From a virus (lineage: Duplodnaviria > Heunggongvirae > Uroviricota > Caudoviricetes), in IMG/VR virus record IMGVR_UViG_2636416136_000013, positions 1-40,427 of that record: a DNA stretch of 40,427 nt; one strand, 5' to 3'. A model generated the notes under the pieces. It did not search any database and was not told where the DNA came from. It saw only the letters and a list, made by a program, of their open reading frames with translations. The translations under genes and the position numbers were made by a program. Positions 1-40,427 of this stretch are shown here, one piece after another (the first letter of the stretch is position 1; every line of letters begins with the position of its first letter).

Positions 1-603
1 CTTCTATATGATAATCCATCATTATCCAACTCTGATATTCAGTTGTTGGCGACAAATCAATTGATTAGTTATCATGTTGTTTTAAATAATAAAATGCTTC
101 CTAATCAGTGCGCTCTTCTTCCTTTGTCGAAGTTAATTATTATTAGCGATAACTTTAGAAAGTTAGCAAAAAATGCTGATTATAATGGGCCGGAACTTTT
201 CACGCACGCACATCAATTCGTGGGACAAAATTACTTAGGATTTGGCGATTATACAATTACTGGCCAGGTACTAGATCTTGGAGGTGGTCAACCTTCTGCT
301 GTTGCCGCACATTTGGTGTTCAAGAATTTACAAGCGAATACAGTTTGGATTCGTCATTTTGTATCAAGCAACACGCAACGAGGAAGTTCAAATGTTACTG
401 CAAAATTTTTAGATGTTTCAGATCAAATTACAAATCTTGTTCCCCAACATCCAACCCAGTTTGGCAGCAACATTGGTCTTAACTATTATTATTACAATAG
501 TCAACCAACTGTAAGGCATTTCCCTGGGTTGCCAAAAAACAAACAGTATCAAATTACTCACCATATTTGTTTCATGCTGGATTTAATAGCAGGTCGTATT
601 TAA
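1..603 (+). CDS. Partial ORF, probably the C-terminal part of a protein starting upstream of the window; function unknown
   Basis: Reading frame is open from nt 1 (the track's Met at 43 is a TTG); AT-rich; the 3' end overlaps the 3' end of the convergent integrase by ~20 nt. No recognisable motifs. Confidence 0.3.
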   Translation, partial: LLYDNPSLSNSDIQLLATNQLISYHVVLNNKMLPNQCALLPLSKLIIISDNFRKLAKNADYNGPELFTHAHQFVGQNYLGFGDYTITGQVLDLGGGQPSAVAAHLVFKNLQANTVWIRHFVSSNTQRGSSNVTAKFLDVSDQITNLVPQHPTQFGSNIGLNYYYYNSQPTVRHFPGLPKNKQYQITHHICFMLDLIAGRI

Positions 604-1758
604 TAAGCTAGCGTACCATTCCATCATTACTTGTCGATCTTTAATATATTGCGCATGATTGTAAGTACCTCGAATAGAGTTCTTATCAACATGCGCAAGC
701 TGCATTTCAATCCAGGCACTTTCAAACCCATGCTCATGCAAGATGGTGCTCATGGTATGCCTGAAACCGTGACCCGTTAACCGACCGTGATAACCCAGTA
801 GTTTTATCACTTTGTTGATGCTGGCTTCGCTCATTGGTTTACTGACGTCATTCCGGCCAGGGAAAACGAGGCTGTAATTCCCTGTTATTTCTTGCAGCTT
901 TTTCAGGATATTGATCGCCTGAGTTGATAACGGAACCAGATGGGGGCGGCGTTTCTTCATCCGTTCTTTGGGGATCTCCCATAAGGCATTATCTAAATCA
1001 AACTCAGCCCATTCCGCTGCACGTAGTTCAATTGTTCGCACGCCTGTTAGCATCAACAGCTGCGTGGCGTATTTGGTAACTAAACTGCCCTGATAGTTAT
1101 CCAGAGCATTAACGAACTCGGGCAACTCGCTTTCAGTCAGGAACGGGAAGTGTTGGGTTTTAGGTTTGTTGAGTGCGATAGCTAAATCGGGTGCAAAATT
1201 ATACTTTGCTCTACCAGTGGCAACAGCATAACGAAGCACTTCACCACAGCGGCGGCGGATCTTACTGGTTTGCTCTAGCGCACCTCTTTTCTCTATTTTT
1301 TGCAGGACGGTTAGCAGTTCTAATGGTTCAATCTGCTCAATTGGGCGCTGGCCGATAAAAGGAAAAATATCCTTTTCCATACAATTGAGAACCTCTTTTG
1401 CATAACCCTCTGACCAGGTGGCTTTTTTCGATGAGTGCCATTCTCTGGCCACAGACTCAAAGCTGTTCTCATGCGCGAACTGCAAAGCAATCTTATCTGC
1501 TTTTCTGGCTTCACTTGGGTTTATCCCGTTGGCTAACATCGAACGCGCTTCATCACGTTTGGTACGTGCCTGTGCCAACGACACATCGCCATATACGCCA
1601 AAGGAAATCATCTTAGGCTTACCTGCAAAGCGATAGCGAAAACGCCAGCCTTTACTGCCCGCTGTGTCGATCAGGAGTGATAGCCCCATACCATCGTTAA
1701 GCGTATAGGGTTTGTCCTTCGGTTTTGCTCTTTTTATTTGGATGTCAGATAGCAGCAT
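583..1758 (-). CDS. int: P4-family tyrosine integrase (site-specific recombinase)
   Basis: N-terminus MLLSDIQIKRAKPKDKPYTLNDGMGL is a typical P4/CP4-57-type arm-binding start; C-terminal catalytic region has HGFRHT...LAHVDKNSIRGTYNHAQY (R..HxxR..Y). Start set at the internal Met (MLLSD), not the track's upstream Met. Confidence 0.9.
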   Translation of the reverse strand: MLLSDIQIKRAKPKDKPYTLNDGMGLSLLIDTAGSKGWRFRYRFAGKPKMISFGVYGDVSLAQARTKRDEARSMLANGINPSEARKADKIALQFAHENSFESVAREWHSSKKATWSEGYAKEVLNCMEKDIFPFIGQRPIEQIEPLELLTVLQKIEKRGALEQTSKIRRRCGEVLRYAVATGRAKYNFAPDLAIALNKPKTQHFPFLTESELPEFVNALDNYQGSLVTKYATQLLMLTGVRTIELRAAEWAEFDLDNALWEIPKERMKKRRPHLVPLSTQAINILKKLQEITGNYSLVFPGRNDVSKPMSEASINKVIKLLGYHGRLTGHGFRHTMSTILHEHGFESAWIEMQLAHVDKNSIRGTYNHAQYIKDRQVMMEWYASLLNTTCY

Positions 1759-2006
1759 GTGTATAGAAAAAAGATCGAACTCAGTTATACACAATGTTAT
1801 ACGCAAAGATGTATAGATTCCATTAGAAATAATGGTACTTTGCTGGACGAGTATAAGGAGATGATATCAGTTAAAACAGTGAGTTATGGAATTAATTGAA
1901 CTTAGTGAGAAGTGTTCATGGTGTCCCCTGCAGACATCTACTTGAGGCGGCAGGGGATTGATTGGAATGGTGTTTTTTAGATGTGAAAAATATTTTACCC
2001 GCTATT

Positions 2007-34808: not shown

Positions 34809-35006
34809 TTAGTTGCAGTCTTTTTTATATAAATCTCTGAGCGTATCAAAGACAATTTTCTTTACCATATCGGATTGTTGGTCTGCAATACGCGATGCTA
34901 TTGGTAGCGATGAATTCAATCGCTTGTCGAGAGCTGGTATTGTCGCCTCGTTAAGCGGAATGGAGCGGGAGTAATTAGTAATCCACGGATGGATTCGTTT
35001 AGCCAT
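34809..35006 (-). CDS. Hypothetical protein (65 aa), distal gene of a small minus-strand operon
   Basis: ORF overlapping the stop of the upstream ~140-aa gene by 8 nt; no recognisable motifs. Confidence 0.45.
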   Translation of the reverse strand: MAKRIHPWITNYSRSIPLNEATIPALDKRLNSSLPIASRIADQQSDMVKKIVFDTLRDLYKKDCN

Positions 35007-35445
35007 CGGATAGGCGCTCTTTTGCCTCTTCGATTAAATCAGCACAAATAAGAGGTAGCTCTGATGAAACAACTTCCCAGCCAGATTTTTTAACAACTTC
35101 ATTTAACCACTCTTCTCGATCGTGAGTTCCTCTTCTTTTTTCTAGGAGGAATATTTGAGAGTAAATCTGAATGGCCTTCTCGTTTAGATAAAACGCATAT
35201 TGCCTGTTTAAAACAACATCTGCAAGTATATCAATGCCTTGTTGAGTTTTTGCCGCTACATCTGGCTCTACTCCCATACGAATAGATAAATCGCATAACT
35301 CAACGAATGCACGCTCTTCAGCGTCGTATTTCATTTTGTAAAAATGTGAAGCCAGTTTTTGTGTTTCGGCGAGTTCTGCCCTTAATTTTTTTATCTTGCT
35401 TCTCGTTAATATACCAAACACACCAACCTCCTTAGTTTTGAGCAT
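34999..35445 (-). CDS. Hypothetical cytoplasmic protein (~140-148 aa)
   Basis: ORF 34999..35445; an AAGGAGG Shine-Dalgarno lies just inside the annotated 5' end, so the true start is probably the GTG at plus 35419..35421. Confidence 0.55.
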   Translation of the reverse strand: MLKTKEVGVFGILTRSKIKKLRAELAETQKLASHFYKMKYDAEERAFVELCDLSIRMGVEPDVAAKTQQGIDILADVVLNRQYAFYLNEKAIQIYSQIFLLEKRRGTHDREEWLNEVVKKSGWEVVSSELPLICADLIEEAKERLSDG

Positions 35446-35474
35446 GACGAAATTAACCAGCCATCAGGATGGTA

Positions 35475-35657
35475 TTAGTCACATTCTATTTCTTTTGTCG
35501 AGGTCCATACATAAGGGTCTGAGCAAACAACCTCTCCATTTATCATGACGTCATAGCCCATTAGATATGAGTTACCACCAACAACCTGGGCGGCGATGAC
35601 GCTAATGCTGGCGGCGCAGGCTGCACCAAAAACGAAACCAATTAATATATTTTTCAT
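35475..35657 (-). CDS. Small secreted protein (60 aa) with signal peptide
   Basis: [25 protein letters not shown] resembles a signal peptide; the ~35-aa mature part contains two Cys. Confidence 0.45.
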
Positions 35658-35679
35658 TTTGATTCCAAATAGTTATAGG

Positions 35680-35874
35680 ATGAAAGTTACGACCATAGAA
35701 GAACGCCTGAACAACACTGAGTTAAACCAAACCCTGCTTGACCAGCGACTTTCAGATCTTGAACTTAAAGATCTTGATGCGCAAATATCAGAAGCAGAAG
35801 CCAAGCTCTCCAGCTTAAACCACCGCAAGAAGCAAATCCGCAACAGAATTACTCAGGGACGCGGAAGCTGTTGA
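35680..35874 (+). CDS. Possible small coiled-coil protein (64 aa)
   Basis: ORF frame 35596..35874 with internal ATG; heptad-like sequence; weak ribosome-binding context. Confidence 0.25.
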   Translation: MKVTTIEERLNNTELNQTLLDQRLSDLELKDLDAQISEAEAKLSSLNHRKKQIRNRITQGRGSC

Positions 35875-35895
35875 TGTAGGGCCACAATCCTATCG

Positions 35896-36285
35896 TTAAC
35901 ATTTTCTTTTTACTTTTCCAACAAAAGCTTTGGTTGAATCCATATTTCCATAACCGGAAATGGTTTTTGACATTAAAACTGTTCCAGTAGGATGTATTAC
36001 CCATGAGTCTATAACGCGTTGAGTTTCTCCATTCGCGCCAATTCCTAGGATGGAGTTTTTAGACAATGCTTTGTAAGCCATGCCACCCGCATCTGTCCCA
36101 GAATATGTGACGCTGGCATCTTCACCGCTTGTCTTAATGATGAATGTTCCACTAAAACCATCTTCTTCCGGTTGGAAATTATTTCGTTCTGAATAGTTTA
36201 TTCCGCGCATATCTCCAACGACCCAGCACTCCGCTGTAGCCCCAAAAGATATGAATAAGAACATAGCAGCAAGAAATTGCTTCAC
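35896..36285 (-). CDS. Secreted/periplasmic hypothetical protein (129 aa; GTG start)
   Basis: AAGGAGG Shine-Dalgarno 5 nt upstream of the GTG; signal-peptide-like N-terminus (M)KQFLAAMFLFISFGATAEC. Confidence 0.6.
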   Translation of the reverse strand: MKQFLAAMFLFISFGATAECWVVGDMRGINYSERNNFQPEEDGFSGTFIIKTSGEDASVTYSGTDAGGMAYKALSKNSILGIGANGETQRVIDSWVIHPTGTVLMSKTISGYGNMDSTKAFVGKVKRKC

Positions 36286-36402
36286 GCCAACCTCCTTAGT
36301 TTTGAGCAGGATACCATGAAAAAAGTAAACATCTTTTGTCTACTTCACATTTGAATGGTTTGTCATTAGGATGTTTCCGGTTTTTTAAATATGGAAATTG
36401 TT

Positions 36403-36822
36403 ATGAAGAGGATTATTGGCGTCGTTGCTGGCGCTATATTGTTATCTGGGTGCGCAACTATTGTTGGTGACGAAACGCAGCTTGTGCAAGTGAACAGCAA
36501 TCCCTCCGGTGCGAGCTTTAAGGTAAAAGACGAATCAGGCGTGATTGTTGCGCAAGGTAAGACCCCGCAAGGAGTAACTCTTGCCAAGTCAGATGGTAGT
36601 TATTTTGGCAAAAAGAGCTACCAGATCACTATGGAAAAGGATGGGTACGAACCAGTTACCCTGCCAATCAAAGCCAATGCTAATGGCTGGTATATTGGTG
36701 GAAACCTTGTGTTTGGTGGGTTAATTGGTTGGCTTGCTGTAGATCCTTTTAATGGTGGGATGTATACCTTGAAGCCAAAAGAGGCAAACGCATCTCTTAT
36801 ACCATCAACAAAGCAAGACTAA
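36403..36822 (+). CDS. Lipoprotein (PEGA-like fold suspected)
   Basis: Lipobox MKRIIGVVAGAILLSGC; mature part has KDGYEP and a Gly/Trp-rich C-terminus; followed by two tandem terminators. Confidence 0.65.
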   Translation: MKRIIGVVAGAILLSGCATIVGDETQLVQVNSNPSGASFKVKDESGVIVAQGKTPQGVTLAKSDGSYFGKKSYQITMEKDGYEPVTLPIKANANGWYIGGNLVFGGLIGWLAVDPFNGGMYTLKPKEANASLIPSTKQD

Positions 36823-36854: not shown

Positions 36855-36904
36855 TACAAATCCTTCAGCCAGTACATAACTACTGACAGATAACCAACGC
36901 AACG

Positions 36905-36929
36905 ACCCAGCTTCGGCTGGGTTTTTTTA
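36905..36929 (+). terminator. Rho-independent terminator 2 (tandem)
   Basis: ACCCAGC-TTCG-GCTGGGT followed by TTTTTTTAT. Confidence 0.75.
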
Positions 36930-36986: not shown

Positions 36987-39161
36987 ATGACAGACATTAC
37001 AGCCAATGTGATCGTATCGATGCCTTCGCAACTCTTCACTATGGCTCGTTCTTTTAAAGCTGTAGCCAATGGCAAAATTTATATCGGTAAAATTGACACT
37101 GACCCGGTAAATCCTGAAAACCAAATTCAGGTTTATGTGGAGAACGAAGACGGCTCTCACATTCCCGTTTCGCAACCAATAATTATTAACGCTGCTGGCT
37201 ACCCTGTATATAACGGACAGATTGCCAAATTCGTAACCGTGCAAGGCCATTCTATGGCTGTTTATGATGCGTATGGTACACAGCAGTTCTATTTTCCGAA
37301 TGTGCTGAAGTATGACCCGGATCAGTTTAAATTACTTATTGGCGGTACAGATGGTAGTAAATATATCGGTTTCGGCGCTTCAACTGTTTACGATGCAATC
37401 AGGAAAACACCTCAATACTATGGAGCTAAAGCAGATGGATTGACATCAGATTCTGATGCCATTAATGCCGCAGCATTAGCTGCTTTTAATAATGGTGGCG
37501 GGGAAATATTTTACCCTCCAGGTGTTTATTTAATAGATTCTCCTATCATTCTTTATACAGGCGTTCATCATAAAGGCTCTGGAAAGAGAGCAACATTTCT
37601 GTATGTTAAAAAAGGTAGTAATACAGATGTATTTAAAACACATGGCTTTGGCGTTGTGGATAATCTGTCTGATGCGCCATATGGTTTTAGCATAAAAGAT
37701 ATGACCATTGATGGTAATTATCTTGACTTGCAAAGAGATACAAACTCATGGAGAACTTGCGACACTGTTAACAATGACTATGGAACTGCCATTAAAATAT
37801 TCGGCAGCATGTACCACATTGATGTTGAGATTAATAATGTTGCAGAACATGCTCTCTATTCAGAGGGGTATGGATCATTTCATGATAATCAGGAACACGC
37901 CTCTGAAGTGAGGATAACGGGAAGAATTTCAGGGAGAGAGGGGGTTGTGTTCAGGGGGCCAGGTGATATTAACCTAGATTATATTGTTTTTGGCCTGTGT
38001 GGACTTCCTCCTTACAGCACAAGATTAACAGCAACAAGCCAACAAAGCCTTCTTTATCCCGGAGAACCATGTCATGGAATTGTTCTTGATAATCAGTCTC
38101 CTTATACAGGACATGTCGATATAAATTACATCCATGTATATGCTGCGTATTATGGCTATGGATTTAAGACGCTGGGTGTTAACCGATTCAATGCGAGGCA
38201 TGTGTGTGTTGATAATAGTTTAGGTGGTTACTGGTTTACCAACGGGGCACATGGTGTTGTTGCCATCGCAGAAGCCAGGGCGTGCGGAAGAATGCCAGAT
38301 AACTACACTGGCGATTCAATTTCTCCTCTCCGCGACATGCTTCTGGATAACGGTACAATCTGGACACTTAACATCAATATAAAAGCACAAAGATATTCAC
38401 CTTCAATTGATGATGATGGGTATCAGATAGCTATATCAGGCAACAACAATGTAGTTACAATAAACCAAATTGGTCAGTTACAGAGTGACAATGCCCCTAT
38501 TAAAGCCTCGCTTCTTTCTGTTACTGGTGACAATAACAATGTTACTTTTACATCCAAGAGGATAAAAGGAAATTTATGTTACTTATCCGGCGGTGGTAAT
38601 AATATAAGAGGTTCGTGTGATAATTTGTTTTCGGGTTCTGCTCTTATTCGCGATGCAGTAAATTCAACAACAATTTGTTTTGCGAACAGCGTAGATATAA
38701 CTGCGAAGGGGCTTTCTTCTGATTGTACTGGATTTAACAGCATTGGCACATGTGCATCAGAGAATATAAGATTAATCACTTCAGGCGCAAATGGTTATAA
38801 TAGGTTTTTAGGTGATAGAATGGCAGCCCTTAACAGGACGTGTACGTGGACGATTATGGCAACAGTTGGAAACTCAATAAATGGGAAATCAACTGACGAT
38901 TATATTGAGTGGAATATGCCAAACCCAACAGGTAGCGAATCTAACGAGGTTGATATTGAGCATAATTTTCTGTATGCCCCAACACCAAACCAGATTGCTG
39001 TGTTGGGGTTTAGACAACCTGCTGGTTCTGCAGAAGGTGCAACTTTAAGTCCAATAGAAATTATCGGAACTCCAAGTGAGTCTTCTTTCAGAATTAGATA
39101 CCATTGGTCAGGCACTTTATCTTCTGGCTCTGCTCCAATTGTAATGTTCAGGATTAGATAG
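36987..39161 (+). CDS. Tailspike protein (P22 gp9-type head-binding N-terminus, divergent beta-helix receptor domain)
   Basis: N-terminal ~115 aa [58 protein letters not shown]...NVLKYDPDQ matches the P22/HK620 tailspike head-binding domain; the rest is different and has a pectate-lyase-like start [18 protein letters not shown]. Confidence 0.85.
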
Positions 39162-39269: not shown

Positions 39270-40427
39270 TCACTCCACCTTATCATCTAACCAGTCAGCC
39301 CACCATTGCATCATTTCTCTGCGTTTATCGAGATACTGAGCATGGTTGTAAATTCCGCGCACAGATCCGCCGTTGGCATGTGCCAGTTGCACCTCAATCG
39401 CGTCAGCAGGCCATTCGTGCTCGTTCATAATCGTGCTGAATTCATGCCTGAATCCGTGACCGCTTTCCAGACCCTCATAGCCGATTTGTTTGATCACAAG
39501 CAATACCGCGTTCTCGCAGATTGGCTTCTTCTTATCGTTGCGCCCGGCAAAAACAAACTCTGATACTGGTTTAGTGATTGAGCTTAGCGTAGTGAGAAGT
39601 TCAACCACCTGGTCTGACATCGGGACCACATGAATTTTGCGTCCCTTCATCACACTGGCGTCGATGGTGATAATCCTGTTTTCAAAATCGACGTTCTTCC
39701 ATAGCATGGAACGAAGCTCTTTCGTTCTTAGGGCGGTGTAGCGTAAAACTTTGGTCGCAATGAGCGATACGATGCTTCCTGAAAATGTTGCCAGTGCTTT
39801 GTTAAATGCCGGGATCTGGTCTGCTGGAAGGAACGGGAAGTTCTTCTTGCGGTATCCTTTCATGGCGTCTGCAAGGTCAGGTGCCGGGTTATATTTAGCC
39901 CTTCCGGTGACAATAGCGTAACGGAAAACCTCGCCGCATCTTCTGCGTGCTTTGTTGGCTCGCTCCATTGCCCCGCGATCTTCAAATCTGCGGATTACTT
40001 CCAGCAGTTGCATCGGCTCAATATCCTGAATTTCAAGGCCGCCGATGATGGGTAAAATGTCGTCATCAAACATTTTTGCAAGTTCAGTTGCATAGCCTAC
40101 TGACCAAACTTGCTTCTTGTGCTCGTACCATTCCTTGTAAATCGCACTAAAGGAATTGTTGTTAGACGAAGCCTTTTTCGCTTTTACCGGATCGATGCCA
40201 ACCGAGATGTCTTTCCTCGCGGTCCATGCTTTATCTCTTGCCTCCTGCAAAGTCATTAGCGGATATTTTCCTACGGTCAGGATTTTCTCCTTACCGTCAA
40301 TCTTGTAGCGAAGCTGCCATACCTTTTTCCCTGACACAGGGACATAAAGGTACAGGCCATTACCATCGAGTAGGCGGTATGGTTTTTCTTTCGGCTTTGC
40401 TGCTTCAATCTGCTTAACGGTGAGCAT
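39270..40427 (-). CDS. int: P4-family tyrosine integrase (second copy; start codon at the window edge)
   Basis: MLTVKQIEAAKPKEKPYRLLDGNGLYLYV N-terminus parallels the left integrase; catalytic HGFRHE...LAHANGGSVRGIYNHAQY; the ATG is the last three bases of the window, so upstream signals are not visible. Confidence 0.88.
   Translation of the reverse strand: MLTVKQIEAAKPKEKPYRLLDGNGLYLYVPVSGKKVWQLRYKIDGKEKILTVGKYPLMTLQEARDKAWTARKDISVGIDPVKAKKASSNNNSFSAIYKEWYEHKKQVWSVGYATELAKMFDDDILPIIGGLEIQDIEPMQLLEVIRRFEDRGAMERANKARRRCGEVFRYAIVTGRAKYNPAPDLADAMKGYRKKNFPFLPADQIPAFNKALATFSGSIVSLIATKVLRYTALRTKELRSMLWKNVDFENRIITIDASVMKGRKIHVVPMSDQVVELLTTLSSITKPVSEFVFAGRNDKKKPICENAVLLVIKQIGYEGLESGHGFRHEFSTIMNEHEWPADAIEVQLAHANGGSVRGIYNHAQYLDKRREMMQWWADWLDDKVE

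What the first reader, a model, noticed from the sequence alone, without database searches (positions are those of the whole stretch)
36987..39161. Mosaic tailspike: conserved P22-type head-binding domain with a different receptor-binding beta-helix
Only the first ~115 residues match the P22/HK620 tailspike head-binding domain. The remaining ~600 residues are unrelated to the P22 endorhamnosidase as recalled and begin with a pectate-lyase-like motif ([18 protein letters not shown]). This implies a different surface-polysaccharide specificity (O-antigen or capsule), and therefore a different host range, which could be linked to the neighbouring accessory genes.
Basis: partly seen in the sequence, partly recalled or inferred. 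Interest (0 to 1): 0.4.

Follow-up and report, generated by a model that had tools for sequence, protein, structure and literature searches.

The report
Mosaic P22-type tailspike of ST131 prophage
This is a normal modular phage tailspike: a P22-type virion-attachment domain joined to a rare, uncharacterised sugar-binding beta-helix that occurs almost only in prophages of the pandemic E. coli ST131 clone, so it probably targets that clone's O25b (and perhaps O16) surface sugar.

Summary
ORF 36987-39161 (+) encodes a 724-aa tailspike. Residues 1-113 are a P22-type head-binding domain (PF09008, E 2e-66; 73% identical to P22 gp9). The rest has no sequence similarity to the P22 endorhamnosidase. 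It starts with a PF12708 pectate-lyase-type cap and is predicted with high confidence (pLDDT 93) as a right-handed beta-helix plus a C-terminal beta domain. No solved structure is close (TM <=0.47).

The same receptor-binding block (residues 154-600, 95-99% identical) sits behind an epsilon15-type anchor in another E. coli prophage, with a sharp DNA junction at window 37446. This is textbook module swapping.

The module is rare: 35 clusters at E<=1e-30 among 1.84 billion. Eleven of 5426 complete E. coli genomes carry it. Seven of the ten P22-type lysogens have an O25-type rfb locus, one has O16, one is ST131 by literature only, and one is untyped. O25B and O16 share an alpha-Glc-(1->3)-alpha-L-Rha-(1->3)-GlcNAc backbone, a plausible common target.

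The neighbouring accessory genes are not linked to this tailspike. It is a new member of a known kind, of modest interest. The specificity and the enzymatic activity are inferred, not shown.

The parts
36987..39161 (+). Tailspike gene, 724 aa, last late gene of a P22-like (Lederbergvirus) prophage
   Evidence: ORF. The window matches phiv205-1, CUS-3, Sf101 and HK620 over the late region. RefSeq names the 99% identical protein 'phage tailspike protein'.
36987..37325 (+). Head-binding (virion anchor) domain, residues 1-113
   Evidence: PF09008, E 2.4e-66. Aligns to P22, Sf6 and HK620 tailspike N-domains. 73.3% identical to P22 gp9.
37326..37445 (+). Linker/neck and start of the beta-helix cap, residues 114-153. 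Not shared with the epsilon15-type homolog (27% identity).
   Evidence: Segment identities; DNA alignment A2; low pLDDT up to about residue 133.
37419..37652 (+). PF12708 pectate-lyase-type N-terminal cap of the beta-helix, residues 145-222, containing [18 protein letters not shown] (145-162)
   Evidence: Pfam E 1.4e-10, above the gathering score. This is the only part of the receptor-binding region that matches solved structures by sequence profile.
37446..38786 (+). Exchanged receptor-binding beta-helix block, residues 154-600. Includes the family signature [16 protein letters not shown] (311-327) and the conserved polar residues E318, D327, D368, H383, R400.
   Evidence: 98.6-98.7% (154-450) and 94.7% (451-600) identical to the 781-aa epsilon15-type protein P0002. 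DNA identity jumps to about 99% at 37446. Megablast match to NR379 covers 37446-38983. AF2 beta-helix, pLDDT >90. Conserved residues from A1 and A3.
38787..39158 (+). C-terminal part, residues 601-724 (last helix rungs plus an all-beta C-terminal domain from about 615). More diverged between phage types (73% then 52% identity).
   Evidence: Segment identities. AF2 strands 619-723 at pLDDT about 86-96.
36904..36923 (+). Terminator-like hairpin between the upstream lipoprotein gene and the tailspike gene
   Evidence: Consensus scan. A pattern match only.
39270..40427 (-). IntS-type integrase, the prophage's own integrase. It converges on the tailspike, leaving 108 bp and no room for gtr/oac-type O-antigen modification genes.
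   Evidence: Pfam integrase domains. In the lysogens the order is tailspike, intS, tRNA-Arg (argW), yfdC, and the far end is torI-dsdC.
34809..36822 (.). Accessory (immI-like) block, not linked to this tailspike type. It holds a Mnt-like repressor, a 148-aa ORF, a 60-aa membrane peptide, a 129-aa secreted protein and a 143-aa lipoprotein.
   Evidence: Pfam and PHROG; no PADLOC hits; mosaic distribution next to other tailspikes; a different block in CAVp367 and EC32.

Best explanation
The gene encodes the tailspike of a P22-like temperate phage that integrates at argW in E. coli. Shown: residues 1-113 are the conserved module that docks the spike on the P22-type tail. Everything from residue 154 onward is a different receptor-binding module, brought in by recombination at the conserved start of the beta-helix. 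A nearly identical block is used by an epsilon15-type (Uetakevirus) prophage of E. coli behind that phage's own anchor. Predicted: the module is a right-handed parallel beta-helix with a C-terminal beta domain, like other tailspike depolymerases. Inferred: it forms a trimer, binds the host's long-chain surface polysaccharide and cleaves it with an acid/base pair drawn from the invariant polar residues (E318, D327, D368, with H383 and R400). That would let the virion work its way down to the outer membrane. Inferred from host distribution: the substrate is most likely the ST131 O25b O-antigen (about 0.65). It may also be O16, through the alpha-D-Glc-(1->3)-alpha-L-Rha-(1->3)-D-GlcNAc backbone the two share (about 0.4). 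Because neither polymer contains uronic acid, a hydrolase (endo-rhamnosidase or endo-glucosidase) is more likely than a lyase.
For: Domain split. Recombination junction at 37446 and 95-99% identity of residues 154-600 to P0002. P0002's first 165-200 aa are an epsilon15-type anchor (71.5% to epsilon15, 98% to E. coli epsilon15-like phages), and the protein sits in a podovirus prophage. Beta-helix fold: AF2 pLDDT 93.1, pTM 0.88. Foldseek top hits are tailspikes (Pam1, Sf6, HK620, phi297) and AlgE epimerases. The only close fold is the second tailspike of Vectrevirus R4596 (TM 0.84 on the target, 27% identity). Other relatives carry other phage anchors (PF18668, PF03906) or sit in a Pseudomonas siphovirus-type prophage. 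Hosts: 10 of 5426 complete genomes carry the gene at >=99% DNA identity. Seven of them have the O25-type rfb locus: CAVp367, OZ039045, GN04171, OZ040950, AR_0058, Ecol_276 and MNCRE44. Strain 875 is an ST131 clone-mate of Ecol_276. EC32 is O16. The base rate of the O25 block is 462/5426. The epsilon15-type copy in NR379 is also in an O25-type background. O25 and O16 clusters share rmlBDAC and homologous wbbJ/K/L. The published repeat units share Glc-Rha-GlcNAc (PMC8260533; PMC11218652). Lederberg- and Uetakevirus prophage tailspike types are reported to track the host O serogroup (PMC10408124). No gtr or oac genes lie between the tailspike and int.
Against: No binding or cleavage has been measured, and no characterised enzyme lies within reach of sequence or fold comparison, so the chemistry is a guess. 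The lysogens are phylogenetically non-independent, all or nearly all ST131, so the O25 association may reflect only about 3-4 acquisition events. One lysogen is O16, which fits only if the enzyme recognises the shared trisaccharide. The window's own host is unknown. The closest whole-phage relative, CUS-3, uses a capsule rather than an O-antigen. A cellular homolog in Pseudomonas sits next to a capsule-type export locus. I could not obtain model coordinates to check that the conserved acidic residues cluster in a groove.
Confidence: 0.7

Rival explanations
1. The receptor-binding module targets a capsule (K antigen) or another shared exopolysaccharide of ST131 such as colanic acid, not the O-antigen.
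For: CUS-3, one of the closest whole-phage relatives, carries a K1 endosialidase on the same anchor. The P. putida homolog P0017 lies beside an ABC-transporter, capsule-type export locus. The best PHROG (phrog_8280) is labelled as colanic-acid degrading. The gene's presence in both O25 and O16 hosts would be explained trivially by a non-O-antigen receptor common to ST131.
Against: The PHROG label traces to Salmonella phage SEN22, whose tailspike shares only residues 1-128 with this protein. The solved colanidase Phi92 gp150 is only a weak generic fold hit (E 3e-4). The ST131 capsule locus is reported to be extensively mosaic, so no single K type is shared (PMC4192283); this was not checked in these particular strains. 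Colanic acid is made by nearly all E. coli, which does not fit a module confined to 11 of 5426 genomes.
Confidence: 0.2
2. The module binds polysaccharide but is not a glycosidase. It would be a pure adhesin, or it would modify the polymer, for example by removing the 2-O-acetyl group that O25B carries on rhamnose.
For: Fold neighbours include the non-enzymatic adhesin PfbA and the AlgE epimerases as well as hydrolases. O25B carries Rha2Ac, with the acetylation predicted from homology to O16. Tailspikes with esterase activity exist (title of PMC11654681).
Against: A set of invariant acidic, His and Arg residues is kept down to 23% identity, including in Tat-signal cellular homologs that have no virion to attach. 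That argues for catalysis. No esterase-type domain was detected by Pfam.
Confidence: 0.08
3. The gene is a relic in a defective prophage and no longer functions.
For: The argW site holds the defective KplE1/CPS-53 remnant in K-12 (established knowledge; torI and intS are seen).
Against: The ORF is intact and differs by only 5-10 amino acids between carriers. Its 90% cluster has 148 member sequences. The window holds a full set of P22-like late genes.
Confidence: 0.02

Closest known systems
P22 gp9, Sf6 gp14 and HK620 gp9 tailspikes (Lederbergvirus)
   Same: Same N-terminal head-binding domain (73%, 91% and 86% identity). Same position at the end of the late operon. Same overall plan of anchor, neck, right-handed beta-helix and C-terminal domain.
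   Different: The receptor-binding part is not homologous by sequence to any of them. Fold similarity is only generic (TM 0.40-0.47, 10-12% identity). Their substrates (Salmonella O:4/9/1, S. flexneri Y, E. coli O18A1) are not those of the hosts seen here.
781-aa tailspike of epsilon15-like (Uetakevirus) E. coli prophages (P0002; WP_074158656 in NR379)
   Same: Residues 154-600 are 95-99% identical, so it is the same receptor-binding module in the same O25-type host background.
   Different: A completely different N-terminal anchor (epsilon15 type), a diverged C-terminal 120 residues (52-73%), a different phage type and a different integration site (yfgI/ppx).
Second tailspike (gp49) of Escherichia phage vB_EcoP_R4596 (Vectrevirus, K1-5-like)
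   Same: The only close structural relative: TM 0.84 on the target, rmsd 3.4 A, 27-30% identity over residues 145-678.
   Different: A lytic SP6/K1-5-type phage with its own adapter. Its substrate is unknown, and it plaques on a single strain whose serotype is not given in the text. At this identity the specificity may differ.
Pantoea stewartii WceF (PDB 6TGF)
   Same: The precedent for a bacterial, Tat-exported, EPS-locus-encoded protein with a tailspike fold (PMC7949094). WceF even matches this protein's head-binding domain (E 9e-10). The Pseudomonas homologs P0012, P0015 and P0017 look analogous, with RR signal peptides and a neighbouring export locus.
   Different: WceF's beta-helix is not the same family as this receptor-binding module. 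The resemblance is in the N-domain and in concept only.
CUS-3 endosialidase tailspike
   Same: Same phage backbone, same anchor and the same argW/IntS arrangement.
   Different: Its catalytic part is an endosialidase for the K1 capsule, unrelated to this beta-helix. Similarity ends near residue 156.

Membership tests
P22-like (Lederbergvirus) tailspike | N-terminal head-binding domain (PF09008) | tested here: met
   E 2.4e-66, full-length match 1-113; aligns to solved P22 and Sf6 N-domains.
P22-like (Lederbergvirus) tailspike | Encoded at the end of the late operon of a P22-like genome, after the ejection-protein genes | tested here: met
   Gene order in the window and in the lysogens. The late region is 94-96% identical to phiv205-1, CUS-3 and Sf101.
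P22-like (Lederbergvirus) tailspike | Central right-handed parallel beta-helix | tested here: met
   AF2 model with pLDDT 93.1. All top Foldseek hits are beta-helix tailspikes or enzymes. This is prediction, not experiment.
P22-like (Lederbergvirus) tailspike | Homotrimer with receptor-destroying endoglycosidase activity | not testable with these tools
   Only monomer prediction is available, and no biochemistry.
P22 gp9 endorhamnosidase receptor-binding domain | Sequence homology of the beta-helix to P22 gp9 residues about 120-666 | tested here: not met
   phmmer aligns P22 chains only over 1-116. Pfam gives no P22-tailspike hit. P22 is absent from the top 50 fold hits.
PF12708 pectate-lyase-3 / RHGA-epimerase-like superfamily | N-terminal cap motif (GAxGDG...D..AIxxA) above the Pfam gathering score | tested here: met
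   41.8 bits against a cut-off of 27, residues 145-222. Only profile positions 7-86 of 213 are matched.
GH28 or GH55 glycoside hydrolases (names some sources give to homologs) | Family-level sequence match including the catalytic region | tested here: not met
   The NCBIfam rhamnogalacturonidase model scores 27 bits against a cut-off of 500 and covers only the cap. GH55 and GH28 structures are weak generic fold hits.
Colanic-acid-degrading tailspikes (phrog_8280 label; Phi92 gp150) | Homology of the catalytic part to a protein with shown or claimed colanidase activity | tested here: not met
   The SEN22 tailspike shares only residues 1-128. Phi92 colanidase 6e0v ranks 48th, E 3e-4, 10% identity.
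O25b/O16-specific tailspike (proposed here) | Carriers share the O serogroup across independent phage backbones | tested here: inconclusive
   7 O25-type, 1 O16, 1 ST131 by literature, 1 untyped, plus the epsilon15-type copy in an O25-type strain. The base rate is 8.5%, but the hosts are closely related.

The most novel reading that the evidence does not exclude
The receptor-binding module is an endoglycosidase that recognises the alpha-Glc-(1->3)-alpha-L-Rha(2OAc)-(1->3)-GlcNAc element common to O25b and O16. It would therefore act on both O types of the pandemic ST131 clone. It would also belong to a rare enzyme family that moves between phage tails of three morphotypes and Tat-exported bacterial enzymes encoded beside polysaccharide export loci.
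Probability: 0.3. Interest if true: 0.55.

Novelty: new member of a known kind. Interest (0 to 1): 0.35.

Why it matters
Modular tailspikes are well understood, so the architecture itself is ordinary. The practical value is that this module is a candidate O25b (and possibly O16) specific binder and depolymerase for the most important multidrug-resistant E. coli clone. No O25b tailspike turned up among the solved structures searched or in the papers I could search. Such proteins are used for typing, for engineered pyocins or phages, and as anti-virulence enzymes. The family link to Tat-signal Pseudomonas proteins beside a capsule-type export locus adds a second example of the WceF phenomenon, in which bacteria use tailspike-like enzymes on their own polysaccharides.

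Tried and rejected
1. Colanic-acid lead. phrog_8280 matches full length. The label comes from SEN22, whose C-terminal part is unrelated, so I rejected it.

2. Sequence and profile searches of the PDB for the receptor-binding part matched only the 75-residue cap, so they give no functional transfer.

3. Two Foldseek PDB searches, with the full model and with the receptor-binding part alone, gave only generic beta-helix matches.

4. R4596's host serotype is not stated in the paper's text.

5. The paper by Pas et al. on E. coli tailspike-serogroup links does not cover O25. The SpikeHunter preprint text does not mention O25.

6. Capsule test. I tried to find the kps locus in CAVp367 by its offset from argW. 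That genome is rearranged relative to K-12, and the region fetched was leuX-valS-pyrB, so I abandoned the test and used only the literature on ST131 capsule mosaicism.

7. A search for an att repeat between the two ends of the window found none. The real attR turned out to be internal, at 1918.

8. PADLOC and Pfam searches on the accessory genes gave nothing informative.

9. The window's exact accessory block, and hence its own host, was not found among complete E. coli genomes.

Full report
OBSERVATION. The ORF exists exactly as reported: ATG at 36987, stop ending at 39161, + strand, 724 aa. Pfam finds PF09008 (head binding) over residues 1-113 at E 2.4e-66, and PF12708 (pectate-lyase-like cap) over residues 145-222 at E 1.4e-10. 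Both are above their gathering scores. Against all PDB sequences, the P22 tailspike aligns only over residues 1-116, and Sf6 gp14 over 1-217. Identity to P22 gp9 over 1-116 is 73.3%. It is 86% to HK620, 91% to Sf6 and 96.5% to phage HZ41. The quoted motif is residues 145-162. No record among 50,697 phage genomes covers 80% or more of the protein. The best match to the C-terminal part is 29.8% identity, in phage R4596.

CONTEXT. The window is a P22-like (Lederbergvirus) prophage. Its late region is 94-96% identical to phiv205-1, CUS-3, Sf101 and HK620. In complete genomes that carry the same tailspike, the order is ejection proteins, a short immI-like block, tailspike, intS (convergent), tRNA-Arg argW, yfdC. 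The other end of the prophage is torI-dsdC. That is the KplE1/CPS-53 site, so the IntS-type integrase at 39270-40427 belongs to the phage. Only 108 bp separate the tailspike and int, which leaves no room for gtr or oac-type O-antigen modification genes.

MODULE SWAP. A search of 5.8 billion proteins with residues 115-724 found 26 relatives. P0001 is the same protein (99%; 148 member sequences; named 'phage tailspike protein'). P0002 is a 781-aa E. coli protein that is 87% identical over this region. Its first 165-200 residues are an epsilon15-type anchor: 71.5% to epsilon15 and about 98% to E. coli epsilon15-like phages. It lies in a podovirus prophage at yfgI/ppx.

By segment, the window protein and P0002 compare as follows:
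- residues 1-146: 22-27% identical;
- residues 154-450: 98.6-98.7%;
- residues 451-600: 94.7%;
- residues 601-666: 72.7%;
- residues 667-724: 51.7%.

At the DNA level, identity switches to about 99% at window 37446, which is codon 154 within SDSDAINAA. The megablast match ends at 38983. The junction lies in the conserved cap motif, a plausible recombination site.

More distant relatives (40-74% identity) occur in Atlantibacter, Pseudomonas and Agrobacterium with yet other N-termini, including PF18668 and PF03906 phage adapters and a siphovirus-type Pseudomonas prophage. The Atlantibacter protein is itself patchy: 55% identity over residues 154-300 but 93% over 301-450.

STRUCTURE AND CHEMISTRY. 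With a 46-sequence alignment, AlphaFold2 models residues 117-724 at mean pLDDT 93.1 and pTM 0.88. The model has a capping helix, a long stack of beta rungs, and an all-beta C-terminal region from about residue 615. An earlier full-length model agrees.

Foldseek against the PDB gives only generic right-handed beta-helix matches: the Pam1, Sf6, HK620 and phi297 tailspikes, phi29 gp12, AlgE4/6 and PfbA, at TM <=0.47 and 10-12% identity. Against predicted viral structures, the one close match is R4596 gp49 (TM 0.71 on the query, 0.84 on the target, rmsd 3.4 A). That protein is the second tailspike of a K1-5-like Vectrevirus with unknown substrate.

The family is rare. Among 1.84 billion cluster representatives, 128 match at E<=1e-10 and 35 at E<=1e-30. 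Residues that stay invariant or nearly so down to 23% identity include R313, E318, D327, D368, H383, R400, H405, R555 and E592, with a signature GRxSGxEGxxxRGPGD at 311-327. I infer that these form the catalytic and binding site. I could not inspect coordinates to confirm that they cluster.

WHICH POLYSACCHARIDE. Eleven of 5426 complete E. coli genomes carry the module: ten as the 724-aa P22-type protein at >=99% DNA identity, and NR379 as the epsilon15-type protein.

I read the rfb locus directly in eight of the ten:
- O25 family flippase with identical cluster proteins: CAVp367, OZ039045, GN04171, OZ040950, AR_0058, Ecol_276 and MNCRE44.
- O16 wzx and wzy: EC32.

Strain 875 is a documented ST131 clone-mate of Ecol_276. 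MNCRE44 and AR_0058 are documented ST131. EC20 could not be typed. NR379 has the O25-type cluster with a clean 4.6-kb deletion from rmlB to wzx. The O25 wzx-wzy block occurs in 462 of 5426 genomes, or 8.5%, so the enrichment is strong. The carriers are closely related, however, so it amounts to only a few independent events: the O25 lysogens, the O16 lysogen, the epsilon15-type copy, and the window's own variant.

The O25 and O16 clusters share rmlBDAC (90% DNA identity) and homologous wbbJ, wbbK and wbbL (68, 55 and 60% aa). The published repeat units are:
- O25B: ->4)[beta-Glc-(1->6)][alpha-Rha-(1->3)]alpha-Glc-(1->3)-alpha-L-Rha2Ac-(1->3)-beta-GlcNAc-(1-> (PMC8260533);
- O16: ->2)-beta-Galf-(1->6)-alpha-Glc-(1->3)-alpha-L-Rha-(1->3)-alpha-GlcNAc-(1-> (PMC11218652).

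They share a Glc-Rha-GlcNAc trisaccharide, which could explain one tailspike serving both. The O25-host and O16-host proteins differ at five residues: T98A, Y102N, D251Y, M330L and A387V. Published work reports that Lederberg- and Uetakevirus prophage tailspike types track the host O serogroup (PMC10408124).

A capsule remains possible. CUS-3 uses K1, and the ST131 capsule locus is variable (PMC4192283). I could not type kps in these strains.

The 'colanic acid' label of the best PHROG does not transfer, because the SEN22 tailspike it comes from shares only the anchor.

ACCESSORY GENES. Between the ejection-protein genes and the tailspike, the window has a Mnt-like repressor, a 148-aa ORF, a 60-aa membrane peptide, a 129-aa secreted protein and a 143-aa lipoprotein. 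All belong to PHROGs of unknown function and have no PADLOC hit. Lysogens with the same tailspike have a different block here. This block is not found intact in any complete genome, and its parts lie beside other tailspikes, including in O111 strains. There is no evidence of a functional link to the tailspike.

VERDICT. This is a real and correctly described mosaic tailspike: a new member of a well-known kind. The architecture and its origin by recombination are shown. The beta-helix fold is predicted with high confidence. Trimerisation, enzymatic cleavage and O25b/O16 specificity are inferred. Interest is modest (0.35). It would rise if the dual O25b/O16 specificity were confirmed.

Noticed in passing
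window 1-1933 and 39270-40427: The window holds two integrases that are 45% identical. The argW 3' core ATGGTGTCCCCTGCAG sits at 1918-1933, exactly where homology to the CAVp367 prophage ends. So attR is at about 1918. Window 1-1917 (integrase 583-1806 on the minus strand, plus an AT-rich 186-aa ORF at 43-603 with no family hit) is a second element inserted in tandem at the duplicated tRNA core.
   Followed up: yes
L004 10001-11989 (Pseudomonas putida CP069080) and proteins P0012, P0015, P0017: Chromosomal, non-phage homologs that are 45-48% identical over the whole receptor-binding module. They start with twin-arginine-type signal peptides (MVSRRKILKLSALGS...). P0017 lies divergently next to an ABC-transporter, capsule-type export locus (ABC2_membrane, ABC_tran, Poly_export, a KdsA-like gene). 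This looks like a second case of the WceF phenomenon.
   Followed up: partly
L018 (NR379 rfb) and L021 (AR_0058 rfb): Two of the eleven strains that carry this module have a damaged O25 cluster. NR379 has a 4.6-kb deletion from rmlB to wzx, and AR_0058 has an IS1 that truncates a GT4 glycosyltransferase. This would fit selection on the O-antigen by phages that use it, but it is anecdotal.
   Followed up: partly
window 37446-38786 compared with P0003 (Atlantibacter hermannii): There is mosaicism inside the beta-helix itself. The Atlantibacter protein is 55% identical over residues 154-300, 93% over 301-450 and 79% over 451-600. This suggests that sub-domain exchange, or very uneven constraint, centres on the conserved GRxSGxEG...RGPGD region.
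   Followed up: no
window 36391-36822 (+) and 35896-36285 (-): These are moron-like genes just upstream of the tailspike: a 143-aa lipoprotein (lipobox LSGC, weak PEGA-domain hit, phrog_6823) and a 129-aa protein with a signal peptide (phrog_2651). Both are widespread in P22-like prophages with other tailspikes. Their function is unknown; superinfection exclusion is a guess.
   Followed up: partly
PHROG phrog_8280: The family annotation 'tail spike protein with colonic acid degradation activity' appears to be inherited from one RefSeq record (SEN22). It groups proteins that share only the head-binding domain, so it is misleading for this protein.
   Followed up: yes
L014, L015, L019, L020, L022, L023 (O25 rfb clusters): In every O25-type cluster I fetched, PGAP marks the gene between the GT4 glycosyltransferase and wbbJ as a 'frameshifted hypothetical protein'. 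From its position it is probably wzy, so the flag is likely an annotation artefact of this serogroup rather than a real defect.
   Followed up: no
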